Positions 3,328-60,577 of a stretch of 64,000 nt of DNA are shown one piece after another. The notes beneath the pieces are model-generated. The model saw only the letters and a list, made by a program, of their open reading frames with translations. It searched no databases and had not been told where the DNA came from. Source of the stretch: Patescibacteria group bacterium (lineage in GTDB: Bacteria > Patescibacteriota > Patescibacteriia > UBA9934 > GWF2-40-263); contig JBAZTR010000002.1 in NCBI GenBank assembly GCA_041661745.1, positions 132,368-196,367 on the forward strand. The letters are read 5' to 3'. The position numbers and the translations under genes are program-made. The first letter of the stretch is position 1, and each line of letters begins with the position of its first letter.

Positions 3328-3419
3328 AGCTTAGCTTGGCCCACCATTGAGAGTTTCCCGCCTTTGGCGGGACCCCGCCGAGGCCACCGAAGGCGGGGCG
3401 AGTCTCTCCTCGCCCACCA
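3328..3419 (+). repeat. tRNA-associated GC-rich double-hairpin element followed by a 20-nt duplicate of the tRNA-Leu 3' end
   Basis: TCCCGCCTTTGGCGGGACCCCGCC..GGCGGGGC at 3356-3398. Exact copy of GAGTCTCTCCTCGCCCACCA (tRNA 3308-3327) at 3400-3419. Confidence 0.75.
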
Positions 3420-8436: not shown

Positions 8437-8462
8437 AAATCGTCCTTGCGGACGTTTTTTTG
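8437..8462 (+). terminator. Rho-independent terminator after trpS
   Basis: CGTCCTTGCGGACG hairpin followed by TTTTTTT. Confidence 0.6.
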
Positions 8463-8463
8463 A

Positions 8464-8872
8464 CACAGAACCATCTGTAAGCCGAATTTTGTCTGCCCGA
8501 TCTTACGACCGAGGAGGCAATCATTTATCTAGATTAGACATTGCTGCCTAATTCATCAGCGAGCTACCAGTAAAACTTGCTCTTGTACCAGAAGGGGTTT
8601 TCCACGCGTCCATGTTGCCATGGAGCGAAAGGCGTTCGACGCCTTACTTTTCACCTTTCATCCCGCCAGAGGCGGGACTAGTATTGTCTCTGTGGCACTA
8701 ATCCCTAAGCTTTTGAACTTGAACAACAGAGATCTCTCAAGGTCGTCCAGATTCATTATGCTTGGTCGCCGTTAGCGACTTTCCTTTTCATCAGCCGTTG
8801 CCGACTGAAGGGTATTCGGACTTTCCTCAACTCACCTTTCGGCAAATCGCGATTGCCCGATGGTCTGTGCCC
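8464..8872 (-). ncRNA. rnpB: RNase P RNA (bacterial type) candidate
   Basis: About 410-nt ORF-free gap. The minus strand has GAGGAAAGTCCGAAT (P4 5' strand) near the 5' end and ACAGATGGTTCTGTG / CGGCTTA near the 3' end. The P1 strands pair (GCACAGACCATC with GATGGTTCTGTG). There is a GGTGAAAAGTAAGGCG-like element. Confidence 0.55.
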
Positions 8873-19732: not shown

Positions 19733-19965
19733 TTACCTTCCTCCTGTGACGATTATCGAATCGTTACTTTGGTCGAGCACAATATCATAATAAAACTTAA
19801 AGGTCAATACTAAACCAAAAACCGCCCGGTTTAATCCGAGCGGTTTTTTATTTTTAAGATTGGTGCGTCGAGCTGTGCTCGACTCGCACCATCGAGCTTA
19901 TCTGACTTCTATGCCAGGCAAAAGCTAAGCTTTTGCCATTGTAACAGAAATCGAGCTAAGCTCGA

Positions 19966-20042
19966 TGGTGCGCCCAAGACGATTCGAACGTCTGACTTCT
20001 TCCTTCGGAGGGAAGCGCTCTATCCAGCTGAGCTATGGGCGC
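19966..20042 (-). tRNA. tRNA-Arg (anticodon CCG), encoded CCA
   Basis: Reverse complement reads GCGCCCATAGCTCAGCTGGATAGAGCGCTTCCCTCCGAAGGAAG..TTCGAATCGTCTTGGGCGCACCA. Anticodon loop CTCCGAA. Confidence 0.8.
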
Positions 20043-20264
20043 ATATTATTTTGTTGCGCCTAGCGAAGCTGGCAATTTTTCCAGCTGCCCCGCCGACGGT
20101 GGCCTTTGGCGGGGTCCCGCCAAAACGAAGTGACGGCGGGAAGCTATGGGCGCATATTATTTTGTTGCGCCTAGCGAAGCTGGCAATTTTTCCAGCTGCC
20201 CCGCCGGCGGTGGCCTTTGGCGGGGTCCCGCCAAAACGAAGTGACGGCGGGAAGCTATGGGCGC
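20043..20264 (-). repeat. Two tandem 111-bp units, each made of a tRNA-associated GC-hairpin element plus a 12-nt copy of the tRNA-Arg 5' end
   Basis: AGCTATGGGCGC (reverse complement of the tRNA 5' end GCGCCCATAGCT) recurs at 20031, 20142 and 20253. The units differ by a single A/G. Confidence 0.85.
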
Positions 20265-20406
20265 ATATTGTTTTGCCCTCTTCTGTAAGCTCATACTGTT
20301 GAGCTACGAAGTCCACCGAAGCTCCGAAGCCTATAGATGAAGGCGAGGAGCGAAGGTGGGTGGGCGCATTAAACGAGAGCTTAAACCTCTTTTTTCAACA
20401 AGTCAA

Positions 20407-21102
20407 CTACTTCTCTAGCCTCTTCAAAATAAAAAAACCGTGTCTTACCTTATCTGGTTTTATTTCATGAACTTGTTTTGTTTCAAAACCATGCGCTTTA
20501 AAAAAAGCTTCCCACTCTGGAATACTTTTATAGCCATGCGGTCCGTTCCTTAATTCCAAATTAATCTTCTTATCAATACTAGTAGTTATTTGGCGCTCGG
20601 CTTCACTTTCAACAATATCTTCAGCAATAAAAATTCTACCATCTTTATTTAAGACTCTGTCTATTTCAGAAAAAACGTCTTCCAAATCTTCACCTTCGAC
20701 ATGGTGCAAAACGAAAAACAAAGTCACGGCGTCTTGTGATCCGTCCTCAATCTCCCGCAAATCGCCACCATGTATACTTTCATGCAAATAAGAAGCGTTA
20801 TGGCCTAACCTTTCTAATCTTGCTTTAACTGGTGGCGCCCAATGGTCGTGCGGGTCAACGCCGGTCACAGTTGTCTCTGGCAGCTGGGAATCGATCTGAT
20901 CCATTTCATGACCCTTTCCCGCGCCTAAACACAAAATTGATAAACCACGGCCTTTCTTTTCTCGTAAGGGACGAAGCTCTCCGACCAAACCAACTTCCTT
21001 TAACATCCACTGAGCCCGTTCGGTAAGGGTCTTGTCAACCTGCCCACGAGAAAACTCTCTGATAATCGTCGGCCACAAATCATGTCTTCTTGACTCGTTC
21101 AT
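20407..21102 (-). CDS. Class I SAM-dependent methyltransferase
   Basis: Motif I ILCLGAGKGHE. Acidic motif II. Confidence 0.6.
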   Translation of the reverse strand: MNESRRHDLWPTIIREFSRGQVDKTLTERAQWMLKEVGLVGELRPLREKKGRGLSILCLGAGKGHEMDQIDSQLPETTVTGVDPHDHWAPPVKARLERLGHNASYLHESIHGGDLREIEDGSQDAVTLFFVLHHVEGEDLEDVFSEIDRVLNKDGRIFIAEDIVESEAERQITTSIDKKINLELRNGPHGYKSIPEWEAFFKAHGFETKQVHEIKPDKVRHGFFILKRLEK

Positions 21103-26439: not shown

Positions 26440-26694
26440 ACTGCCGTTCGCTACAATTCAATTTTTCAAGAAAAAAGGCTCATTCATCCAGTCTTTGGAG
26501 AATGGGTTTTAAAACTCCAGCGAACAACGATCATTCACAATTGAAGACCTGCAACAAACAAGCAAAAAGAATCAATTGTCAATTATACGATTGTAACGTC
26601 TATCAATGACAAATATTTAACTCCAAACAATAACGGAGCTAGTCATTTCTCAGAGTTCCTCCGAAGCCCGTAAGGGCAAAGGGGAATTTCTTCT

Positions 26695-28187
<1,493 letters not shown>

Positions 28188-28406
28188 AAAGGAATCCGAG
28201 GCTTAGGCCTCTATCCTATTAGGTCGACCAGTTAACCGAGTTCGCTCGGCTTAACAGGCAAGGATCAGTCTCGCAAGAGAATGATTTACAGACGTTACAA
28301 TCGTATAGAAGACAATTGCTTGAAGACACCTGAAATATGGTGTTTTTTGTTTATTTTTCCTCTTGACCTTATTGGGTTAATTTTCTATAATATCACTCGT
28401 CAATAC

Positions 28407-28488
28407 GGGCGTGTAGCTTCCCCCTTCGCCTTCGGGCTTCGGAGGACAGGCAGCTGGTCCAGCTTCGCTACACGTTCAAAAATAACCC
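28407..28488 (+). repeat. 12-nt duplicate of the tRNA-Ile 5' end (GGGCGTGTAGCT) followed by a 70-nt tRNA-associated element (TCCCCCTTCGCC..CAGCTGGTCCAGCTTCGCTAC..)
   Basis: Exact repeat of tRNA nucleotides 1-12 lies immediately upstream of the element, and the element abuts the intact tRNA. Confidence 0.8.
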
Positions 28489-28565
28489 GGGCGTGTAGCT
28501 CAGCTGGTTAGAGCGCAACACTGATAATGTTGAGGTCACAGGTTCGAGTCCTGTCACGCCCACCA
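28489..28565 (+). tRNA. tRNA-Ile (anticodon GAT), encoded CCA
   Basis: GGGCGTGTAGCTCAGCTGGTTAGAGCGCAACACTGATAATGTTGAGG..CACGCCCACCA. Confidence 0.85.
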
Positions 28566-28567
28566 GA

Positions 28568-28642
28568 GCCGAGGTAGCTCAGTGGTAGAGCAGAGGACTG
28601 AAAATCCTCGTGTCGCGAGTCCGATTCTCGCCCTCGGCACCA
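28568..28642 (+). tRNA. tRNA-Phe (anticodon GAA), encoded CCA
   Basis: GCCGAGGTAGCTCAGTGGTAGAGCAGAGGACTGAAAATCCTC..CCTCGGCACCA. Sits 2 nt after tRNA-Ile. Confidence 0.8.
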
Positions 28643-28797
28643 CACCACGTCGCTGCATTTTAAATGGAGCTATGTGGTGTGTCCCTCCGAAGTCCTGCCT
28701 GTGGCGGGACGAAGGGGGACATCAAAACATCCAGACTCGTTCTGGGTTTTTTGTTTTATCCATGTTATACTCTTTCCGACAGAAATCTTATAAATAT

Positions 28798-29868: not shown

Positions 29869-29947
29869 CGGGCCGTAGCTTCCCGCCTTTGGCGGGACCC
29901 CGCCAGAGGCGGGGCAGTAGTTTTTCTTCGCTACGGCTGATAAATGT
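29869..29947 (+). repeat. 12-nt duplicate of the tRNA-Pro 5' end (CGGGCCGTAGCT) plus a 67-nt GC double-hairpin element
   Basis: TCCCGCCTTTGGCGGGACCCCGCCAGAGGCGGGGCAG..CTTCGCTACGGCTGATAAATGT directly precedes the intact tRNA. Confidence 0.85.
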
Positions 29948-42081: not shown

Positions 42082-42487
42082 AATTTGGCTTATAGAACAA
42101 AAAATCCGTCCCTAAAATAAAGGAAGGTTAATTATGTTTTTTTATTGTTAGGCAGGACAGTTCCAGCGCGCTCGTCAAGCGGGTCGCGTTAGTAACCGTT
42201 AAATATTGCGCCAGCATGGAAAATATTTTTTCATGCCTCGAATCCCGTCAAACGGGAGAAGAAGCTTTTGCTGGAGGTCCGCCCGGTAGACCTGTCTGCC
42301 TCAAACGGGGCGAATTTTAGCCGAAAAACTTCGGCCAGCTCGACGCAAATATATCAAAGCTGTGGACAAACGTCAAGAGGAAAAAGAGTGAATAAAAAAC
42401 AAGCTGTCAAGACTAGAACTTTTTTAGCTTAATTTAGCTAAAAGACAGTATAAAACCAACTTTTAACCCGGAAGTTATCCCCAAAAT

Positions 42488-42521
42488 CCCCCTTCGTCGA
42501 GCCTAGCTCGACTTCGGAGGG
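42488..42521 (+). repeat. CCCCCTTCGTCGAG..CTCGACTTCGGAGGG hairpin motif (copy 1)
   Basis: Shares CCTTCGTCGAG and TCGACTTCGGA cores with the copy at 44204-44241. Confidence 0.6.
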
Positions 42522-44203: not shown

Positions 44204-44241
44204 TGTCCGCCTTCGTCGAGACTTAAATTCGACTTCGGACG
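44204..44241 (+). repeat. CCGCCTTCGTCGAG..TCGACTTCGGACGG hairpin motif (copy 2)
   Basis: Same orientation as copy 1. Together they bracket the 43.05-44.04 kb GC-rich island. Confidence 0.6.
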
Positions 44242-44325
44242 GATGTCGCTATAAGGCGGATAATCCCACCATAGCCCCGCGAATGCGGGGCGAAGGGGGA
44301 TGATGCCTGTGGGGCTCCATTTTTT

Positions 44326-52669: not shown

Positions 52670-53995
52670 ATGCCGACCATCCAAACCAATCCCCAAAATA
52701 TGACATTTTTTGTACTCGGTTCTCACCCGGCCCTTTCGGTCGCAGAAATTGCGAACGTGCTTGGTGTGGAAATAAACCACTCACAATATTCAAAAGAAAT
52801 TTTATTGCTCGATGAAATCGGCACTTCACCCGAAGCCCTGCAAGGTCGTTTGGGTGGTACGATTAAAATCGGCGACATTGTCGGCGAAGTGAACCCCCCT
52901 TCGCCGGGCTTCGGCGGGGCAAGAAAAATTGATAAGGAAGAGGTCGCTGATCTTTTTGTTTCGCTTCTCGCCCACCCCTCACCCCTGCCCCTCTCCCTGA
53001 GGGAGAGGGGGGAGGAGGAGAGGGGTAACCGTGTTGTTTTCGGCATCAGCACCTATTCACTCGATGCCCACCGCGATCTTTCGACTGAAGTCAAACAAAT
53101 TGGCATGACCATAAAAACCAAGTTAAAAGAAGAAGGCCGAACCGCTCGTTTTGTTTCGACCAAAACTGCCGCCCTGCCAAGCGCGGCGGTGACCGGCGAA
53201 AAGCTTCTGGAAAACGGAGCTGAATTTGTAATCATTGTCTCTAAAGAAAAAATATACCTTGGTCAAACCCGCATTGTGCAGGATTTTCAAAGCTGGTCAG
53301 CCCGTGACTACGGTCGACCGCGTCGCGATGCCAAGTCCGGCATGTTGCCGCCAAAACTCGCGCGCATGATGATTAATTTGTCCGGCGCCAAAACCTCGGC
53401 TGCTTTGCTCGATCCGTTTTGTGGCTCGGGCACAGTGCTTATGGAAGCGGCGCTAATGGAATTTACCAATCTTATCGGCAGTGATATTTCCGAAAAAGCC
53501 ATTAAGGACACAACAATAAATTTAGATTGGTTAAATCAAAACGAAGAAGTTGATACTTCCGGAATTCGTCTTTTTAATAAACCAATCGAAACCCTGGCCG
53601 GAGACTTAAAAGAAAAAGTTGAGGTGATTGTCGGTGAAACCTATCTCGGTCCACCGCTCTCGGGTCGCGAAACACCGTTTCGACAAAAACAAATCATGGA
53701 CGAGCTGCTTGAACGCACCGCTTCCGGCCTGGCCGCCTTACTTCAACTTCTTAAAAAAGGTGGAACCGTGGTTTTGGCTCTCCCGGCTTTCTGTGCCCGC
53801 CATAGCCCGGCGACGGCGGGTCAGAATGGAAAAAATATTCAATATCTACCAACCAAAAAACTGGCCGAGGCCGTTGGTTTACAAATTGTTCCCTTCACCG
53901 GCGAACCAAACGAGGTTTCGCCTAATGGTGGGCTACTGTATGTTCGTGAAAATCAAAAAGTGGGAAGAGAAATTGTGAAAATGGTTCTTAAATAA
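52670..53995 (+). CDS. THUMP-type class I SAM-dependent RNA methyltransferase (RlmL/Trm11-like) with an in-frame palindromic insertion
   Basis: Motif I LLDPFCGSGTVLMEAA preceded by MLPPKLARMMINLSG. Low-complexity insert HPSPLPLSLRERGEEERGNR encoded by the palindrome at 52988-53010. Confidence 0.55.
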   Translation: MPTIQTNPQNMTFFVLGSHPALSVAEIANVLGVEINHSQYSKEILLLDEIGTSPEALQGRLGGTIKIGDIVGEVNPPSPGFGGARKIDKEEVADLFVSLLAHPSPLPLSLRERGEEERGNRVVFGISTYSLDAHRDLSTEVKQIGMTIKTKLKEEGRTARFVSTKTAALPSAAVTGEKLLENGAEFVIIVSKEKIYLGQTRIVQDFQSWSARDYGRPRRDAKSGMLPPKLARMMINLSGAKTSAALLDPFCGSGTVLMEAALMEFTNLIGSDISEKAIKDTTINLDWLNQNEEVDTSGIRLFNKPIETLAGDLKEKVEVIVGETYLGPPLSGRETPFRQKQIMDELLERTASGLAALLQLLKKGGTVVLALPAFCARHSPATAGQNGKNIQYLPTKKLAEAVGLQIVPFTGEPNEVSPNGGLLYVRENQKVGREIVKMVLK

Positions 53996-54112: not shown

Positions 54113-54180
54113 CGTGTCCGTCATAGCTCGCCTCGAGCGACGGCGGAATGCCACCTAGCCACCGCGATTCCAAAAACACT

Positions 54181-55101
54181 ATGCCAACTCAAATCGATAA
54201 ACTCTTAACTGACTTCCTTGAATATCTCGAAGTCGAACGCGGTCGCTCGGCCCGGACGATTAGAAATTACGATTTTTATTTGCGCCGGTTTATTAAATGG
54301 GCACGCCACCCTTCGCCGGCCGGCATTACCGATGATTTGATTCGCAAATTTCGCCTGTGGCTTAATCGTGCTGTGCCCGGACGACTTGATTCCACCATAA
54401 AAAAGAACACACAAAATTATCACCTTATTGCCTTGCGAGCTTTTCTTAAATACTTGGCTCGTCGCGATATAAAATCCATGTCCCCGGAAAAAATCGAGTT
54501 GGCTAAAGCCCCCTCGCGCATTGTTGCTTTTTTAGAAGCCGATGAATTGGATCGTGTTTTACAAATTCCCCTAGCCGCCGGCGAAGATTTAATCGGCTTG
54601 CGCGACAAAGCCATTTTGGAAATGCTTTTTTCGACCGGCCTACGCGTGTCCGAATTGGCTAATTTAAAAATCGATCAGGTAAATTTGAAACGCGACGAAT
54701 TCACTGTCCGCGGCAAAGGCGACAAACCGCGCGTTGTTTTTTTATCCGACTCGGCCAAAGAGTGGTTAAAAAAATATTTAAACAAACGCCACGATACTTC
54801 GCCTTACATGTTCATTTGCCACGACCGTGCCAAACGCGGCCGTGAGGATTCCGGTCCAATTACTCCGCGTTCAATCGAACGGATGGTTGAGTATTGTGCC
54901 AAAGCCGCCGGGGTCACCAAACGCATTACCCCGCACACCTTGCGCCACACTTTTGCCACTGACCTTTTAATGAACGGTGCCGATATTCGTTCAGTTCAAT
55001 CGCTCCTCGGCCACGCTTCCATCACCACCACCCAGGTGTATACTCATATTACGAATAAACAGCTAAAAGAAGTGCATAAAAAATTTCACGATAAGAAATA
55101 A
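54181..55101 (+). CDS. Tyrosine site-specific recombinase XerC/XerD
   Basis: HTLRHTFATDLLMNGADIRSVQSLLGHASITTTQVYTH catalytic box (R, H-x-x-R, Y). Confidence 0.85.
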   Translation: MPTQIDKLLTDFLEYLEVERGRSARTIRNYDFYLRRFIKWARHPSPAGITDDLIRKFRLWLNRAVPGRLDSTIKKNTQNYHLIALRAFLKYLARRDIKSMSPEKIELAKAPSRIVAFLEADELDRVLQIPLAAGEDLIGLRDKAILEMLFSTGLRVSELANLKIDQVNLKRDEFTVRGKGDKPRVVFLSDSAKEWLKKYLNKRHDTSPYMFICHDRAKRGREDSGPITPRSIERMVEYCAKAAGVTKRITPHTLRHTFATDLLMNGADIRSVQSLLGHASITTTQVYTHITNKQLKEVHKKFHDKK

Positions 55102-57465: not shown

Positions 57466-58228
57466 CTATTCCCTTTGAAGATAAAATAAACTTTATTGCC
57501 GAACGCAAAGTTGCGGCCAAAGAAGAGCTTTCAATAATCGTTCCGATAAGCTCTTCTTTTTTGTAACTGATAAAAGCCACCTTGTCACCAAAAACATCAA
57601 TCTCACCATGAAAATCATAAAGGTCGTGATCGACCGTGGCCACGGAACGCATTTGTTCTTTACTACTTTTAACGTAACTTTCAATATTCTTTTCACCAGA
57701 AGCCACAACATAAGCGTAAATACCCTTTTCAGCCCTGGCCGAACCGTAAGTTTTGGAAAGCCAACGGAAAATCTCCGGAGCCGGGTCATCGGGCCCAACC
57801 AGAGCAAAAATTGTCTTTTTGTCTTCCAGTGTTTCCCGATAGATTTCTTTCAGACTATCAATTCCTTCGAACATTCTAACTGTCGGACGCTTGGTAACCA
57901 GGTTGTATTGAGACTTAAGGGTTGGTAACGCTGCCGATAACTGGTTTAAAAGGTCATGACTGGCGGCCACCTTGGCCTGGGCAAGCCTACGCAAAGTCTC
58001 GGGATCAGCCGCTTTAAACACGGTTTTGGCCCCGGACTCCTCAAAAATTAGCCCCTTTTTCTTTAAAGAAGCCATTACATTATATAGGTTGCCACGGCCT
58101 AAACCCGAAGGAACCAGTAAATCCTGGGCCGGTTTTGGCCCTAATTCCAATAAAAGCTCATAAACCAGGGCCTCGGAATCATTTATTCCCAGTTGGGAAA
58201 GGATTGGGTAATGGACTTCGTGAATCAT
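57416..58228 (-). CDS. TrmB-like HTH transcriptional regulator
   Basis: Start at MIHEVHYPILSQLGINDSEALVYELLLELGP (winged helix of the TrmB family). The upstream extension to 58372 runs into a repeat and is unlikely to be coding. Confidence 0.55.
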   Translation of the reverse strand: MIHEVHYPILSQLGINDSEALVYELLLELGPKPAQDLLVPSGLGRGNLYNVMASLKKKGLIFEESGAKTVFKAADPETLRRLAQAKVAASHDLLNQLSAALPTLKSQYNLVTKRPTVRMFEGIDSLKEIYRETLEDKKTIFALVGPDDPAPEIFRWLSKTYGSARAEKGIYAYVVASGEKNIESYVKSSKEQMRSVATVDHDLYDFHGEIDVFGDKVAFISYKKEELIGTIIESSSLAATLRSAIKFILSSKGIVMPPEEVAPLVAQPSS

Positions 58229-58230
58229 AG

Positions 58231-58325
58231 AAAAGGGAGGGAAAGGGTTGGAAAGAGAGTGGAAGAGAGGGAAAGTTTTTCTTACTTTCCTTCCCTTTAA
58301 TCCCCTTTCCTTCTCTTTCATTCTT
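58231..58325. repeat. Inverted arrays of degenerate GGAAAG hexamers (purine arm / pyrimidine arm)
   Basis: GGGAGGGAAAGGGTTGGAAAGAGAGTGGAAGAGAGGGAAAG .. TTTCCTTCCCTTTAATCCCCTTTCCTTCTCTTTC. Confidence 0.6.
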
Positions 58326-58430
58326 TTACAAATACAGTATAACATCAAAATGCCATATTGTAAATGACACAAAGTGGATAACTATCTTGGCTTAAATTGG
58401 CCTAAATATGTAATATCTGCCACTAAAGTC

Positions 58431-58459
58431 TTGACAAGTTTCCTCTTTTATGATACTAT
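58431..58459 (+). promoter_or_regulatory. sigma70-like promoter (TTGACA, 17-nt spacer, TACTAT) in a gene-free region
   Basis: Consensus -35 with good spacing. No ORF follows. Confidence 0.5.
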
Positions 58460-58465
58460 AGTGTC

Positions 58466-58668
58466 ATCAAGATGAGGTACAGGGAAGCGAAGACCAGTAC
58501 TTCACCAGATCTTTAAAAAATAACGAGCGAGAGAGCCCTAGTCCAGGGTTAAATGGACATCTACTGAACAAGTAGTCTCCCCTATCCTTATATAGGGGGG
58601 CGAAAGAACAGTGGAAAAGACAGGTTTGTGTATCTTTCTCAAATAAGAACATAAACCTGTCTTTTTCT
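58466..58668 (+). ncRNA. Candidate small RNA of about 200 nt (unknown family), bounded by a promoter and an intrinsic terminator
   Basis: Promoter at 58431-58459. Internal hairpins (CCCCTATCCTTATATAGGGGG). Terminator AGACAGGTTT..AAACCTGTCTTTTT at 58618-58668. No ORF longer than 14 codons. Confidence 0.4.
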
Positions 58669-58974
58669 TTAAGACTCTGTCCTGGCCAGACTTGCCAGGA
58701 ATTAACTTGGATGAAAAGGAGATAAACACGCTATCGGTTGAGTCCAACTCAATGGATTCCCGAGGAGATACGGCGAGAGAGATTATCACCCTTTCAACTA
58801 AGCCAAACTTCTTAACGAGTGCGCAGTGGCCTAATTCCCTACGGGTTGAGTTGGACCACCTGCAGTCTTTAAGAAGACTATGAGGTTCTGCAAGAGGTGT
58901 TGGAACCATCTTCTGCCGGATGAACTTTCACAATTGAATATTCATCAAAAAAACTGACCGATACTTCGGGGGCA

Positions 58975-59017
58975 ATTCGTAATTCGTATATTCGTACGAA
59001 TTCGTAATTTCGTCCCC
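58975..59017 (+). repeat. Array of five TTCGTA hexamers with an embedded palindrome ATTCGTACGAAT
   Basis: AATTCGTAATTCGTATATTCGTACGAATTCGTAATTTCGT. Confidence 0.6.
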
Positions 59018-59215
59018 TCTCTGGAACAAGCCGATTTCGGATACTCGACCTTTAACCAGCCATGCTTGGATTAAAGATCATCGAGCCCGAGACTCAGGAC
59101 GTTCTGGAAGATTCGGTCTTCTTAACGAGGAGGGTTCTTCTTCCTCGGTTCGAATAAGTTCTTAACCCCTCTCCCCAACCCTCCCCCAAGGTGGGAGGGA
59201 GATCTAACTTGAGAA

Positions 59216-59396
59216 CTTTGAGAAAAATATGATTTACCAAATTACCTACATCGCTTCGGCGATCGGAACACTTGGGTTCATGCTCGGATTGAGCTAACCC
59301 AAAAAGCACGAGAGAAAAATCTCACGCGTGCTTCATGATTTATAACCTCACCCCACCCTCTCCTTAGTAAGGAGAGGGAGTTACAGATCACGAAGC
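59216..59396 (+). repeat. 180-bp leader repeat, copy A: mini-ORF + hairpins
   Basis: About 90% identical to 60578-60760. Contains the 22-aa ORF at 59229-59297, an imperfect hairpin AGCACGAGAG..CTCACGCGTGCT, and a perfect hairpin CCCTCTCCTTAGTAAGGAGAGGG. Confidence 0.85.
59229..59297 (+). CDS. 22-aa hydrophobic mini-ORF (MIYQITYIASAIGTLGFMLGLS), leader peptide or type-I-toxin-like
   Basis: Conserved in both copies of the leader repeat (paralog MIYYFVYVASAIGTLGVLLGLS). The differences are largely conservative hydrophobic substitutions. Confidence 0.4.
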   Translation: MIYQITYIASAIGTLGFMLGLS

Positions 59397-59466
59397 ATTC
59401 GAGGAGATCCACCTTCGCCGAGCTTCGGCGGACAAGGAGTCCACGATTGCGAATCCTGTCCATGTT

Positions 59467-59498
59467 GGACGGGTCCGGCAGGCATGCCGTCCTTTTTT
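59467..59498 (+). terminator. Intrinsic terminator / attenuator immediately upstream of the ribosome-binding site and ATG of the first GC-rich gene
   Basis: GGACGGGTCCGGCAGGCATGCCGTCC hairpin, then TTTTTT, then GGAGGAAAACATG. Confidence 0.55.
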
Positions 59499-59508
59499 GG
59501 AGGAAAAC

Positions 59509-60372
59509 ATGCGCTTCGTCATCAGCAGCAATCCCGTCGTCCTCGCCGCCGCCCTGCAGGACAAGCCGTCCGCAACGGTCGAGGCCGAGTACGGCAACGC
59601 CGTGGTCGAGGGCTCTGTCCTCACCATGGCGCACCACGGCCCCCGCGCCGGCCAGCCCGCGCCCTGTGCCTACGAGAACGGCTGCGCCGACGGGGTCGAG
59701 GTGGTGGGCCTGTCCCACTTCGATCTCGACACCCTCGGCGGGTGCGCGGCCATCCTCGGCCGCAAGGTCGAGGCCCCGACCTTCTGGCAGCTCGCCGAGT
59801 TCATCGACCTCAACGGGGCTCACAAGCTCAACGAGGGGATCGAGAAGACCGGCGCGACGCCCGACGACGTGGCCAAGCTCTTCGCCTTCTGGGCGTGGTC
59901 GCGCAACTTCCGCGTCTTCCCGAACCGCGACGGCAGCGTCAGCGACGTCACCGACAAGGTCATCGAGGGCTGCAACGTCCTCGACAAGATCATGAACGGC
60001 GATGCCGACCTGATGAAGGCCGGAACGGTCTACAAGGACGCGGAAGGGAAACTCAACGCCGACTCGTTCGTGGAGGCGAAGGACGGCGTGGTGGTGCGGG
60101 TCTCGTCCCAGTTCACCAACCACCTGTACAACACCCCCGACGGGAAGGCCCACGCCGCGGTCGTGGCCTACACCACGACGACCGGCGCAGTCACGGTCAG
60201 CTTCGCGGACTCCCCCAAGGGCAAGAACGCCCGCCAGATCGTGCAGGAGCTCTGGGGTGAGCTCGCCGGTGGCCACGCCGGAATCGCCGGCAGCCCCCGC
60301 GACCGTCGCATGTCCCTCATCGACCTCACCGCGGCGGTCGAGGCCCTCCGCGCCGCGCTCGCCGGCAAGTAG
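59509..60372 (+). CDS. Hypothetical protein (about 68% GC, foreign composition)
   Basis: ORF 59497..60372 with ATG at 59509 behind a GGAGG ribosome-binding site. Strong GC3 bias. No motif recognised. Confidence 0.55.
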   Translation: MRFVISSNPVVLAAALQDKPSATVEAEYGNAVVEGSVLTMAHHGPRAGQPAPCAYENGCADGVEVVGLSHFDLDTLGGCAAILGRKVEAPTFWQLAEFIDLNGAHKLNEGIEKTGATPDDVAKLFAFWAWSRNFRVFPNRDGSVSDVTDKVIEGCNVLDKIMNGDADLMKAGTVYKDAEGKLNADSFVEAKDGVVVRVSSQFTNHLYNTPDGKAHAAVVAYTTTTGAVTVSFADSPKGKNARQIVQELWGELAGGHAGIAGSPRDRRMSLIDLTAAVEALRAALAGK

Positions 60373-60577
60373 TCACATAGGTTTCTTTCCCAATTTCTTC
60401 TCCTTAGGGCGAAAAAAGTAAATTGGCCATGTGTGCTTTCGAACTCGAGCACGCGTGGAACCGTAGAGTTCAAAAGGAAAGTCGTCTCCCTTTAAGTAGA
60501 CGGCAAAAACAATGCACTCGATTGGCGGATTCACTCCCCGCCTCTTCGACTAAACTCTTGAATTTTCTTTCGAGGGC

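What the first reader, a model, noticed from the sequence alone, without database searches (positions are those of the whole stretch)
28407..28565. Same insertion architecture inside the 16S to tRNA-Ile spacer
GGGCGTGTAGCT (tRNA-Ile nt 1-12) is duplicated 70 nt upstream of the intact tRNA. The intervening element starts with TCCC, like the others, and ends with CAGCTGGTCCAGCTTCGCTAC plus an AT-rich box, like the tRNA-Arg units. Its internal hairpins differ, though (TCCCCCTTCGCC..GGCTTCGGAGG). This is a third, diverged member with the same termini and the same target position. That points to one insertion mechanism recognising the TAGCTCAG D-arm of several different tRNAs.
Basis: seen in the sequence. 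Interest (0 to 1): 0.7.

Follow-up and report, generated by a model that had tools for sequence, protein, structure and literature searches.

The report
Widespread insert in tRNA gene leaders
Just upstream of the tRNA-Ile gene lies an 82-base unit made of a copy of the tRNA's first 20 bases, split by a conserved hairpin and followed by its own complement; the same design precedes more than 50 different tRNA genes in very distant bacteria and in archaea and matches no catalogued RNA family, so it is probably an undescribed tRNA-targeting insert or leader RNA.

Summary
GGGCGTGTAGCT occurs at 28407-28418 and again as nt 1-12 of tRNA-Ile (28489), in two independent assemblies.

The 70 nt in between are not a fixed-sequence element. 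They hold a hairpin (H1, 28419-28446), CAGG, a copy of tRNA nt 13-20, the reverse complement of tRNA nt 1-20 and an A-rich spacer. Together they fold as a three-way junction.

Two pattern scans of public genomes and metagenomes gave 70 hits. In 69 of them the tRNA-specific first 7 nt are duplicated as well. These make 54 distinct units on about 25 anticodon types, in Patescibacteria, Bacteroidota, Omnitrophota and DPANN archaea. The Ile unit is a canonical member (76 bits with my covariance model). No Rfam family matches, and I found no description in the literature searched.

Close relatives have or lack the unit. Arrays occur. H1-like hairpins are also dispersed elsewhere in the genome.

My best reading (about 0.45) is a small non-autonomous element. 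It enters tRNA genes between nt 12 and 13, rebuilds the gene with its own copy of nt 1-12, and is discarded with the leader by RNase P. The main rival (about 0.25) is an RNA switch on tRNA maturation.

Co-transcription with 16S is unlikely, because a terminator and a promoter intervene.

The parts
28322..28347 (+). Terminator-like hairpin followed by a T run, downstream of the 16S gene. It separates the 16S transcript from the tRNA-Ile/Phe unit.
   Evidence: 9-bp stem, tail TGTTTATTTT; 16S ends at 28185
28363..28391 (+). Sigma-70-like promoter TTGACC-17-TATAAT, ending 15 nt before the upstream tRNA copy
   Evidence: 11 of 12 matches. The same arrangement is seen in the ortholog L017 and in the unit-less relative L019.
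28407..28418 (+). Upstream copy ('decoy') of tRNA-Ile nt 1-12. It forms the 5' strand of helix P1.
   Evidence: P1 pairing
28419..28446 (+). Hairpin H1: UCCCCC-UUC-G[CC UUCG GG]C-UUC-GGAGGA. It has an outer stem, a symmetric 3x3 pyrimidine internal loop and a variable inner stem-loop. This is the conserved, non-tRNA module.
   Evidence: The same motif occurs elsewhere in the window.
28447..28450 (+). CAGG linker (consensus CARG) that follows H1 in most units. Its last G pairs with the C of the UC in the antisense strand.
   Evidence: column 53-77: G-C in 17 of 19
28451..28458 (+). Copy of tRNA-Ile nt 13-20 (CAGCUGGU). It forms the 5' strand of helix H3.
   Evidence: In the ortholog L017 both this copy and the tRNA read CAGGUG.
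28459..28477 (+). Antisense strand CCAGCU-UC-GCUACACGUUC. It is the reverse complement of tRNA nt 14-19 and 1-11, with UC opposite U12 C13. It forms the 3' strands of H3 and P1.
28478..28488 (+). A-rich single-stranded spacer: the proximal pre-tRNA leader, ending at the RNase P site
   Evidence: spacers of 8-25 nt in all units
28489..28565 (+). Intact tRNA-Ile(GAU) with encoded CCA
   Evidence: 77.1 bits
28568..28642 (+). tRNA-Phe(GAA), second gene of the same unit. It has no upstream copy of its own.
28682..28719 (+). H1-type hairpin in the opposite orientation (CGAAG..CGAAG) in the tRNA-Phe trailer, before the terminator at 28729-28747. It is absent from the orthologous trailer of L017.
29869..29947 (+). 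Family member before tRNA-Pro(UGG): CGGGCCGUAGCU + H1/H2 double hairpin + CAGUAG.. + UUC GCUACGGCUG + spacer
   Evidence: 29.4 bits
20043..20264 (-). Two tandem 111-nt family members before tRNA-Arg(CCG), of the H1+H2+H3 four-way form
   Evidence: 30.5 and 30.2 bits
20265..20366 (-). Distal, degenerate third unit of the tRNA-Arg array. Its H1 is of the canonical (Ile-like) type. The promoter-like TTGACT..TAAGCT lies just upstream.
3347..3419 (+). Mirror-image (3'-type) unit after tRNA-Leu(CAG): a copy of the last 30 nt of the tRNA with the same H1/H2 module inserted in the T loop (GAGAGUU|..|CGAGU)
   Evidence: (family D5, 96% to the Pro copy)

Best explanation
The 82 nt at 28407-28488 are one copy of a widespread family of tRNA-linked 5' units.

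Anatomy (shown):
- a copy of tRNA nt 1-12
- a conserved hairpin module (H1 + CARG)
- a copy of tRNA nt 13-20
- a short loop
- the reverse complement of tRNA nt ~3-20, with UC opposite U12 C13
- an A-rich spacer
- the intact tRNA
Alone, the unit folds into a three-way junction: P1 - U - H1 - CAG - H3 - P1'.

How it most likely works (inferred). One period, running from H1 to the downstream copy of nt 1-12, is a small non-autonomous DNA element. It enters a tRNA gene between nt 12 and 13 (..TAGCT|C..) in one orientation and without target duplication. Because its right end carries nt 1-12 of that tRNA behind a usable leader, the gene is rebuilt. The host's original nt 1-12, with the promoter, stay upstream as the 'decoy'.

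In this reading H1 is the protein-binding hairpin next to the joint, as in IS200/IS605 ends or REP sequences. The internal antisense segment acts as a guide that pairs with both sides of the insertion point, and the UC/UC mismatch marks the joint. The target is regenerated by each insertion, so repeated hits build arrays with the newest unit next to the tRNA.

At the RNA level the unit is a passenger. It is transcribed from the tRNA promoter and removed with the leader when RNase P cuts at tRNA +1. The mobilising enzyme was not identified.
For: Family and specificity:
- 69 of 70 hits to the two scan patterns (14 genome-contig loci, 51 metagenome loci, the window and orthologous loci) also duplicate the tRNA-specific nt 1-7 with 2 or fewer mismatches. 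That feature was not in the patterns.
- There are 54 distinct units on about 25 anticodon types.
- The junction lies after nt 12 in all pattern hits and in three of the five real non-pattern variants; one has it after nt 17.
- H1 has the same orientation in every unit.
- The copy of nt 13-20 and its complement follow each tRNA's own D-loop: 6.2 vs 4.3 nt and 5.2 vs 3.4 nt for shuffled partners, 0 of 200 shuffles as high.
- The three-way junction is supported: 94.5% of cells paired vs 78% shuffled, and 12 pairs with changes on both sides.

Gain and loss:
- The Ile unit is present in the window and L017 but absent in L019 and L071.
- The Arg units are absent in L019 and L072.

The decoy looks like the old gene start:
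- The promoter sits directly before the distal copy, at about the distance it has from the tRNA in unit-less relatives.
- 19 of 69 decoys carry mismatches. In the 5 informative cases (L020, L024, L049, L053, L056) the antisense strand agrees with the tRNA, not with the mutated decoy.

Arrays:
- 10 of 56 loci have arrays.
- Some are heterogeneous, for example a distal degenerate canonical unit plus two proximal H1/H2 units at the window's tRNA-Arg, and likewise in L015, L027 and L041.

H1 behaves like a dispersed repeat:
- Copies lie in both orientations away from tRNAs.
- The same H1/H2 module sits in the Pro and Arg leaders and in the T loop of a tRNA-Leu 3' copy.

No RNA-specific signature:
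- G-U 14 vs A-C 10 in stems.
- Sense and antisense strands fold equally well.

The unit is a real sequence, found in two assemblies.
Against: - No transposase, HUH nuclease or other recurrent gene lies next to the units. No excised or empty-site pair at the strain level was seen, so mobility itself is not shown.
- Colonising a new tRNA needs three tRNA-specific segments to change together, and I can only propose unverified routes for this.
- Units persist and co-evolve with their tRNA. tRNA nt 16, its copy and its complement all changed between the window and L017. The same holds for nt 6 of tRNA-Pro units in the window vs L063. This fits selection on an RNA as well as gene conversion.
- Conserved unpaired nucleotides (the UUC/UWC loop, CARG) and stems of variable sequence and length are typical of functional RNAs.
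- The scan patterns fixed TAGCTTCC, TTCGCTA and TAGCTCAG, so the apparent universality of those motifs is partly built in.
Confidence: 0.45

Rival explanations
1. A cis-acting RNA switch on tRNA maturation. The antisense strand can pair either with the upstream copy, which leaves the tRNA free to fold and be cut by RNase P, or with the real 5' end of the tRNA. In the second case the upstream copy pairs with the tRNA's 3' acceptor strand. The conserved H1/junction core would sense a protein or ligand, or simply set the kinetics, and so tune how much mature tRNA is made.
For: - In 37 of 48 full precursors the minimum-energy fold has the antisense strand on the real tRNA 5' end. Only 6 keep an intact acceptor stem. 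For the window's Ile precursor the two folds score -69.9 and -59.5 kcal/mol.
- A three-part switch explains why copy, complement and tRNA must stay matched. It also explains the concerted changes seen between orthologs.
- It fits the conserved junction nucleotides with variable stems and the strong covariation.
- The units always lie between promoter and tRNA, in the sense orientation.
- The Pro unit is retained in four related genomes.
Against: - The distribution is sporadic. 19 TAGCTCAG tRNAs in the same loci lack a unit, and close relatives lack the Ile or Arg units.
- Stems show no excess of G-U over A-C and no strand asymmetry in folding.
- Decoy mutations are not compensated in the antisense strand.
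- About a fifth of units have almost no pairing beyond GCUA.
- H1-like hairpins occur in both orientations in other transcripts.
- The energy model ignores tRNA tertiary structure.
Confidence: 0.25
2. The unit is the gene of a small stable RNA that hitch-hikes on the tRNA transcript. This would be a 5' mirror image of the E. coli tRNA-linked repeats. Its 3' end is made by RNase P at tRNA +1. Its 5' end would be made at the transcription start or by RNase P at the tRNA-like copy. The released three-way-junction RNA would act in trans.
For: - E. coli tRNA-linked repeats end in 18-19 nt identical to the 3' end of the neighbouring tRNA or rRNA gene. At least three of them are transcribed and processed (PMC8144298).
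- The unit is a compact, very stable fold: z = -2.6 for the Ile unit, and -4.9 to -6.5 for the Arg and Pro units.
- Its sequence core is conserved across phyla.
Against: - No target or partner is evident.
- The tRNA-specific parts would be needless for a trans-acting RNA.
- P1 usually leaves nt 1-2 unpaired and has no RCCA-like tail, so it is a poor RNase P substrate.
- The distribution is sporadic.
Confidence: 0.1
3. The literal first reading: a fixed-sequence miniature transposon that duplicates a 12-bp target (tRNA nt 1-12) on insertion.
For: A 12-nt direct repeat flanks the 70 nt. The left end is constant (TCC..) and the position is constant.
Against: - The right part of the 'element' is tRNA-specific, both sense and antisense, in every unit. 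The inserted DNA therefore differs for each tRNA.
- The left edge of the repeat coincides with tRNA +1 in all units. A staggered cut would not explain this.
Confidence: 0.03
4. A decayed tandem duplicate of the tRNA gene (a pseudogene) whose middle was replaced.
For: The 5' 20 nt are tRNA-like, and the Arg units have four helices.
Against: - The 3' strand is complementary to nt ~3-11 and 14-20, not to nt 1-7 as an acceptor strand would be.
- There are no anticodon or T arm remnants.
- The same conserved H1 occurs on about 25 different anticodon types.
- ARAGORN and the Rfam tRNA model do not call the units.
Confidence: 0.03

Closest known systems
tRNA-linked repeats (TLRs) of Escherichia coli (Egan and Landy 1978; Rudd 1999; described in PMC8144298)
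   Same: Short repeated units inside tRNA/rRNA transcription units, sometimes in arrays of one to five. Each carries a terminal stretch identical to the end of the adjacent stable-RNA gene. Function is unknown for most. The window's tRNA-Leu and tRNA-Arg trailers and the L021 trailer repeats are of this 3' type.
   Different: TLRs lie downstream and copy the 3' end (18-19 nt). The Ile unit lies upstream and copies the 5' end (12 + 8 nt). It also carries the reverse complement of that copy and a conserved hairpin at a fixed position. It occurs across phyla and in archaea.
REP / BIME palindromic repeats and their RAYT transposases, including REPs nested in target palindromes (PMC3733652)
   Same: H1 is a 25-50 nt imperfect palindrome with a conserved mismatch loop. 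It is dispersed in both orientations, mostly between genes, and is sometimes nested inside a larger local palindrome. In tRNA units it is preceded by (G)UAG-CU, which recalls the GTAG tag of REPs that PMC3733652 reports E. coli RAYT recognises and cleaves. The cut after CT is from my own memory of the RAYT work.
   Different: The (G)TAG is the tRNA's own nt 7-10, and other H1 copies lack it. No RAYT gene was seen. REPs do not carry sense and antisense copies of a neighbouring gene's end and do not rebuild a gene.
IS200/IS605-family elements and their miniature derivatives (single-strand, HUH Y1 transposase; target read by base pairing with a short internal guide)
   Same: Insertion 3' of a short fixed sequence, in one orientation, without target duplication. 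There is a hairpin next to the joint and an internal sequence complementary to the target.
   Different: Known guides are 4-5 nt, whereas here about 17 nt span both sides of the joint. Known elements do not carry a replacement copy of the disrupted gene end. No transposase was found. This comparison rests on my knowledge of the family, not on a test.
Integrase-driven genomic islands and prophages in tRNA genes
   Same: The inserted DNA carries a copy of the interrupted tRNA segment, so the gene stays intact and a partial copy is left at the far end.
   Different: Those elements are kilobases long, encode an integrase and replace the 3' part of the tRNA. This unit is 79-111 nt, has no gene and replaces the 5' 12 nt. 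The only recombinase in the window is a Xer-type enzyme.
Three-part leader switches (attenuators, riboswitch expression platforms)
   Same: Three segments are present, and the middle one can pair with either neighbour.
   Different: Known cases control mRNAs by termination or translation. None is known to compete with the folding of a tRNA, and no ligand or effector is known here.

Membership tests
Any Rfam 15 family | Match to a curated covariance model | tested here: not met
   With permissive E-value scans (E up to 10) of 28330-28770 and 19850-20420, only the tRNAs score. Nothing meaningful covers the units. The gathering-threshold scan of the whole window also finds nothing there.
E. coli tRNA-linked repeats (TLR) | Lies immediately downstream of a tRNA or rRNA gene in the same operon | tested here: not met
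   The Ile unit lies upstream of the tRNA. Only the window's tRNA-Leu and tRNA-Arg trailers fit.
E. coli tRNA-linked repeats (TLR) | 18-19 nt at the 3' end identical to the 3' end of the neighbouring gene | tested here: not met
   The identity is at the 5' end: 12 nt, plus 8 nt after H1, matching the 5' end of the downstream tRNA. This is a mirror image, not membership.
E. coli tRNA-linked repeats (TLR) | Co-transcribed and processed out of the precursor | not testable with these tools
   Promoter and terminator positions make co-transcription with tRNA-Ile/Phe likely. No expression data are available.
REP elements / RAYT | Short imperfect palindrome dispersed in many copies and both orientations | tested here: met
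   This holds for H1 only. Besides the tRNA-leader units, H1-type hairpins lie at about seven other sites in the 64 kb, in both orientations. Copies away from tRNAs also occur in six other genomes.
REP elements / RAYT | GTAG or CGTC tag at one end of the palindrome | tested here: inconclusive
   In tRNA units H1 follows (N)TAG-CT, but this is tRNA nt 8-12. H1 copies at 42487, 44265 and 59408 have no such tag.
REP elements / RAYT | A RAYT (HUH Y1) gene in the genome | not tested
   None was found among ten proteins from 51-63 kb or as a recurrent neighbour in 0.5 Mb of loci. The rest of the genome was not available.
IS200/IS605-type miniature elements | Insertion 3' of a fixed short target, single orientation, no target duplication | tested here: inconclusive
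   The joint lies after ..UAGCU in all 69 pattern hits and after UAGUU in one variant, in one orientation. 'No duplication' holds only if the downstream nt 1-12 are counted as element DNA, which is my inference.
IS200/IS605-type miniature elements | Mobilised by a TnpA Y1 transposase; single-stranded circle intermediate | not testable with these tools
   No enzyme was identified and no read-level data are available.
tRNA-integrating islands/prophages | Integrase gene and kilobase-size insert between the tRNA and its partial 3' copy | tested here: not met
   70 nt lie between the copies, there is no ORF, and the duplicated part is the 5' part.
Archaeal bulge-helix-bulge tRNA introns | Two 3-nt bulges separated by a 4-bp helix at the two joints | tested here: not met
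   By inspection of L010/L016 and the window unit, the sequences beside both joints (GUAG|CU) cannot pair with each other to give the motif. Most hosts are bacteria.
Riboswitch-like leader switch | Mutually exclusive pairings involving the regulated RNA | tested here: met
   Met in silico only. The antisense strand pairs with the real tRNA 5' end in 37 of 48 precursor minimum-energy folds. It pairs with the upstream copy when the leader is folded alone.
Riboswitch-like leader switch | Effector-dependent change of fold and of expression | not testable with these tools

The most novel reading that the evidence does not exclude
The unit is an 80-110-nt guide-bearing homing element found in both Bacteria and Archaea. 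Its internal antisense segment selects the insertion point between nt 12 and 13 of a chosen tRNA gene by pairing with about 17 nt around it. Its right end replaces the displaced gene start. It would therefore be a reprogrammable, target-restoring insertion system, mobilised in trans by an enzyme that recognises the H1 hairpin.
Probability: 0.25. Interest if true: 0.9.

Novelty: new variant of a known kind. Interest (0 to 1): 0.8.

Why it matters
tRNA genes are among the most studied loci. Even so, this architecture has no Rfam family, and I found no description of it. It combines a copy of the tRNA's own 5' 20 nt, its complement and a conserved hairpin at a fixed position. It recurs on about 25 anticodon types in Patescibacteria, Bacteroidota, Omnitrophota and DPANN archaea.

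If it is a mobile element, it shows a new way of living inside an essential gene without killing it, using a long base-pairing guide. That would interest work on programmable DNA insertion.

If it is an RNA switch, it would be the first leader known to regulate tRNA maturation by competing with the tRNA's own fold.

In either case it affects annotation. Partial tRNA copies and assembly breaks occur at the arrays; contig L001 ends inside the Arg array. It also gives a concrete, testable precursor for RNase P studies in uncultivated lineages.

Tried and rejected
- Rfam, both at gathering thresholds and at E up to 10: nothing on the units.
- Viral contigs: 0 hits, so this is not a phage tRNA feature.
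- Self-cleaving ribozymes (hammerhead, HDV-like, twister family, hatchet, pistol): no Rfam signal, and the junction strands (U / CAG / none) do not match the hammerhead core.
- Archaeal bulge-helix-bulge intron at 12/13: the flanks of the two joints cannot form the 4-bp central helix.
- Box C/D or H/ACA guide: no C/D boxes. The pocket-like topology is generic, and most hosts are bacteria.
- Integron attC-like site: the general shape of H1 is similar, but the R-box consensus is absent and the nearby recombinase is Xer-type.
- Tandem-inversion-duplication by template switching: it predicts a palindromic spacer and an inverted copy of H1. Neither is present.
- Snap-back priming at the AGCU palindromes: it predicts a different junction sequence.
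- Leader-trailer pairing of the two oppositely oriented H1 copies around tRNA-Ile/Phe: the complementarity exists (10 + 10 bp), but the trailer copy is missing in the ortholog L017, so it is incidental.
- 'Naked' sense/antisense leader hairpins without H1: none among 114 tRNAs.
- A linked enzyme gene: none recurrent next to units.
- Strand test for RNA-level selection: uninformative to negative.
- Literature: eight full-text searches and four papers opened. No description of this architecture was found.
- Exact look-up of the neighbouring 245-aa protein: not on record.
Full report
**What is in the window**

The window carries a 16S rRNA gene (26689-28185), an RNase P RNA gene and six tRNA genes. 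tRNA-Ile(GAU) is at 28489-28565, followed 2 nt later by tRNA-Phe.

Its first 12 nt, GGGCGTGTAGCT, recur at 28407-28418. Counting matches with up to one mismatch, 3 are observed against 0.10 expected.

An ENA metagenome contig (L001) is 99.98% identical to the window over 10,961 nt and carries identical Ile and Pro units. It ends inside the tRNA-Arg repeat array. A Logan contig (L002) matches 100% over 2,709 nt but ends inside the distal Arg unit.

The organism is a member of the Patescibacteria close to Uhrbacteria. Its TrmD is annotated 'Patescibacteria group bacterium', and the nearest homologs are Uhrbacteria.

**Anatomy of the Ile unit**

| Coordinates | Sequence or feature | Role |
|---|---|---|
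| 28407-28418 | tRNA nt 1-12 | upstream copy ('decoy') |
| 28419-28446 | UCCCCC UUC G[CC UUCG GG]C UUC GGAGGA | hairpin H1 |
| 28447-28450 | CAGG | linker |
| 28451-28458 | CAGCUGGU | copy of tRNA nt 13-20 |
| 28459-28477 | CCAGCU-UC-GCUACACGUUC | reverse complement of tRNA nt 14-19 and 1-11, with UC opposite U12 C13 |
| 28478-28488 | A-rich | spacer |

With H1 and CAGG removed, the unit is simply the first 20 nt of the tRNA followed by their complement.

Folded alone, the unit is a three-way junction: P1 (11 bp), H1 and H3. Its energy is -31.3 kcal/mol, against -23.3 for shuffles.

A terminator-like hairpin (28322-28347) and an 11/12 sigma-70-like promoter (28363-28391) lie between 16S and the unit. 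The unit is thus the leader of a tRNA-Ile/Phe transcript and is probably not part of the 16S transcript.

**The same design elsewhere in the window**

- tRNA-Pro(UGG) has one unit, at 29869-29947.
- tRNA-Arg(CCG) has two 111-nt units plus a distal degenerate one.
- In each case the 5' strand is that tRNA's own nt 1-12 and the 3' strand is its complement.
- The Pro and Arg units carry a double hairpin (H1/H2) instead of the Ile-type H1.
- The same H1/H2 module also sits in the T loop of a 30-nt copy of the tRNA-Leu 3' end, downstream of tRNA-Leu (3347-3419).

**It is a large family**

I searched with a pattern for the shared features, TAGCTTCCC..TTCGCTA..TAGCTCAG. It matches the window 3 times against 0.00 expected.

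| Collection scanned | Result |
|---|---|
| One genome per species | 14 loci |
| JGI metagenomes (slightly relaxed pattern) | 51 loci |
| Viral contigs | 0 loci |

Of 70 hits, 69 also duplicate the tRNA-specific nt 1-7 with two or fewer mismatches, and 50 are identical. The pattern did not require this. One hit (L022) is a chance match.

- There are 54 distinct units.
- By a pattern-free test, 56 tRNA loci have an upstream copy, ten of them with arrays. They cover about 25 anticodon types.
- The record titles name Crocinitomicaceae, Flavobacteriales, Saprospiraceae, Omnitrophota, 'uncultured Gammaproteobacteria', and Woesearchaeota and Nanoarchaeota archaea. The archaeal tRNAs have archaeal D-loops, and one appears to be interrupted by an intron.
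- The majority consensus is N7-UAGCU | UCC-N-CC UUC G[stem-loop]C UWC GG-N-GGA | CARG | tRNA's own nt 13-20 | loop | complement | UUC GCUA + complement of nt ~3-7 | spacer | tRNA.

The window's Ile unit is therefore the canonical type, not a diverged one.

Variants found without the pattern have UAGUU|UCCC, UAGCU|CCCUCC, or the junction after nt 17.

**Support for the fold**

- On an alignment of 19 canonical units, the three-way junction pairs 94.5% of cells, against 78.4% in shuffles and 31-44% for slid partners.
- Twelve pairs change on both sides, and the covariation score is 0.394 against 0.102.
- P1 usually pairs nt ~3-11.
- The copy of nt 13-20 and its complement follow each tRNA's own D-loop.
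- A covariance model built from this alignment finds 76 hits in 537 kb. Nearly all lie 5-20 nt upstream of a tRNA or one or two periods further up. In the window it finds only Ile (76.4 bits), Arg twice and Pro.
- No Rfam 15 family matches.

**Evolutionary behaviour**

Loci orthologous by TrmD synteny behave as follows:

| tRNA | Unit present | Unit absent |
|---|---|---|
| Ile | window, L017 | L019, L071 |
| Arg | window | L019, L072 |
| Pro | window, L019; also L024 and L063, whose orthology was not verified | none seen |

- The Pro units have different H1 cassettes: canonical H1, canonical H1 + H2, or simplified H1 + H2.
- Between the window and L017, tRNA nt 16, its copy and its complement all changed together: C/C/G became G/G/C. 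The same holds for nt 6 of the Pro units. By contrast, nt 17 of the window's tRNA-Pro changed without the copy following.
- 19 of 69 upstream copies carry mismatches. In the five informative cases the antisense strand agrees with the tRNA, not with the mutated copy.
- The promoter lies directly before the distal copy, at about the distance it has from the tRNA in unit-less relatives.
- Arrays can be heterogeneous, with the most degenerate unit distal.

**H1 is not confined to tRNA leaders**

- H1-type hairpins lie at about seven other places in this window, in both orientations. They have the same outer stem and UUC/UWC loop but different inner stems, and are often followed by CARG.
- One lies in the tRNA-Phe trailer and is missing in the ortholog L017.
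- Such hairpins occur away from tRNAs in six other genomes. Some are nested in local palindromes or sit after ..AGCT|.
- This is REP-like behaviour. REPs nested in target palindromes are described in PMC3733652.
- No sense/antisense leader hairpin without H1 was found among 114 tRNAs.
- Stems show no excess of G-U over A-C (14 vs 10), and both strands fold equally well. There is therefore no RNA-specific signature.
- No transposase or other gene recurs next to the units.

**RNA consequences (computed, not measured)**

The leader alone folds as the three-way junction. In the full precursor, however, the minimum-energy fold usually puts the antisense strand on the real tRNA 5' end and lets the upstream copy pair with the tRNA's 3' acceptor strand.

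This holds for 37 of 48 precursors. For the window's Ile precursor the two folds score -69.9 and -59.5 kcal/mol. The model ignores tRNA tertiary structure and co-transcriptional order. Because cleavage at tRNA +1 is irreversible, maturation can still go to completion.

**Interpretation**

Shown:
- the architecture
- its specificity for each tRNA
- its fold
- its breadth
- its patchy presence among relatives
- the dispersed H1 module

Inferred, my preferred reading (about 0.45): one period, from H1 to the downstream nt 1-12, is a non-autonomous element.
- It enters tRNA genes between nt 12 and 13 and rebuilds the gene with its own copy of nt 1-12.
- It leaves the old gene start upstream.
- It uses H1 as the enzyme-binding hairpin and the antisense segment as a long guide.
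- It is discarded with the leader by RNase P.

This reading accounts for the fixed joint and orientation, the edge of identity at tRNA +1, the decaying upstream copies, the arrays with older units distal, and the patchy distribution. It does not yet explain how a new tRNA is colonised, and no enzyme is known.

The main rival (about 0.25) is an RNA switch in which the upstream copy and the real 5' end compete for the antisense strand. It best explains the concerted changes and the conserved unpaired nucleotides.

A leader-derived small RNA, the 5' mirror of the E. coli tRNA-linked repeats (PMC8144298), is a third possibility (about 0.1).

A fixed-sequence transposon with a 12-bp target duplication and a decayed tRNA duplicate are both contradicted by the tRNA-specific antisense strand.

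**Novelty**

The nearest known things each share one or two features but fail their defining tests:
- tRNA-linked repeats
- REP/RAYT repeats
- IS200/IS605-type miniature elements
- tRNA-integrating islands

I rate the unit a new variant of known kinds (tRNA-linked repeat plus REP-like hairpin). There is a real chance that it is something categorically new. My literature and Rfam checks cannot exclude a description in a paper outside the searched library.

Noticed in passing
window 28682-28719 (+): An H1-type hairpin in the opposite orientation sits in the tRNA-Phe trailer, preceded by another hairpin (28643-28680). It is complementary to the leader H1 (10 + 10 bp). The whole ~85-nt stretch is absent from the orthologous trailer in L017.
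   Followed up: partly
window 42487-42521 (+), ~44206-44243 (+) and 44265-44300 (-), 54118-54146 (-), 59408-59432 (+): Dispersed H1-type hairpins (UCCNCC UUCG [stem-loop] CUWCG GNGGA, often followed by CARG) lie in intergenic DNA in both orientations. Each has a different inner stem. One sits just upstream of a Xer-type recombinase gene (54148-55101).
   Followed up: partly
window 52670-53995 (+), at 52894-52918 and 53796-53820: Two H1-like sequences lie inside the reading frame of a 441-aa methyltransferase-like ORF. This could be an in-frame palindromic insertion, as in Rickettsia palindromic elements, or a mis-joined ORF.
   Followed up: no
window 3347-3419 (+): Downstream of tRNA-Leu(CAG) is a copy of its last 30 nt, with the same H1/H2 double hairpin as the Pro/Arg leaders inserted in the T loop between UU and CG. 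An extra GGCCCACCA copy lies in between.
   Followed up: partly
window ~19851-19910 (-): The tRNA-Arg trailer holds a partial 3' copy of the tRNA (AGAAGUCAGA .. GCACCA) in which the T arm is replaced by an unrelated hairpin. tRNA-Arg therefore has linked repeats on both sides.
   Followed up: no
window 8655-8680 (-), inside RNase P RNA 8461-8868: The tip of helix P12 of the RNase P RNA is UCCCGCC-UCU-GGCGGGA. This is the same 7-bp stem as H1 of the Pro, Arg and Leu units. It may be coincidence, since E. coli P12 (recalled from memory, not checked here) has a similar CCCGC..GCGGGA tip.
   Followed up: no
window 26570-28321: The 16S gene has no 23S gene next to it, so the rRNA genes are unlinked. 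A 38-nt inverted repeat (26570-26607 / 28284-28321, 84% complementary) brackets the 16S like a processing stem.
   Followed up: no
window 58000-64000: G+C rises from about 45% to 60-63%. The region holds a 179-nt repeat (59223-59401 and 60588-60766, 88%) and a MoxR-like ATPase ORF. It may be foreign DNA or a mis-join.
   Followed up: no
L019 3016-3300 (-): In this relative the upstream copy still reads CGGGCCGUAGCU, as in the window's tRNA-Pro. The tRNA-Pro behind it has a different acceptor stem (CGGGGAU..) and T arm, and a copy of its last ~30 nt follows 19 nt downstream. The tRNA seems to have been replaced while the old unit stayed.
   Followed up: partly
L021 10537-10700 (+): Tandem trailer repeats follow a tRNA. 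Each is GCCUUCGCUCCGAGGCGGAGCU | H1 | CGCG.. and ends in a degenerate copy of the tRNA 3' end. This is a 3'-type array built with the same hairpin after ..AGCU.
   Followed up: no
L010 1319-1500 and L016 3568-3726: Units in DPANN archaeal contigs have a short H1 (UCCCACGGGGA), a second hairpin and only about 5 bp of P1. A TATA-like box lies about 24 nt before the upstream copy, so transcription may start at its first base. The L010 tRNA appears to be interrupted by an intron and was not called by ARAGORN.
   Followed up: no
L071 6296-6405 (-): In a relative without the Ile unit, the tRNA-Ile/tRNA-Phe spacer holds two H1-like hairpins, one in each orientation.
   Followed up: no
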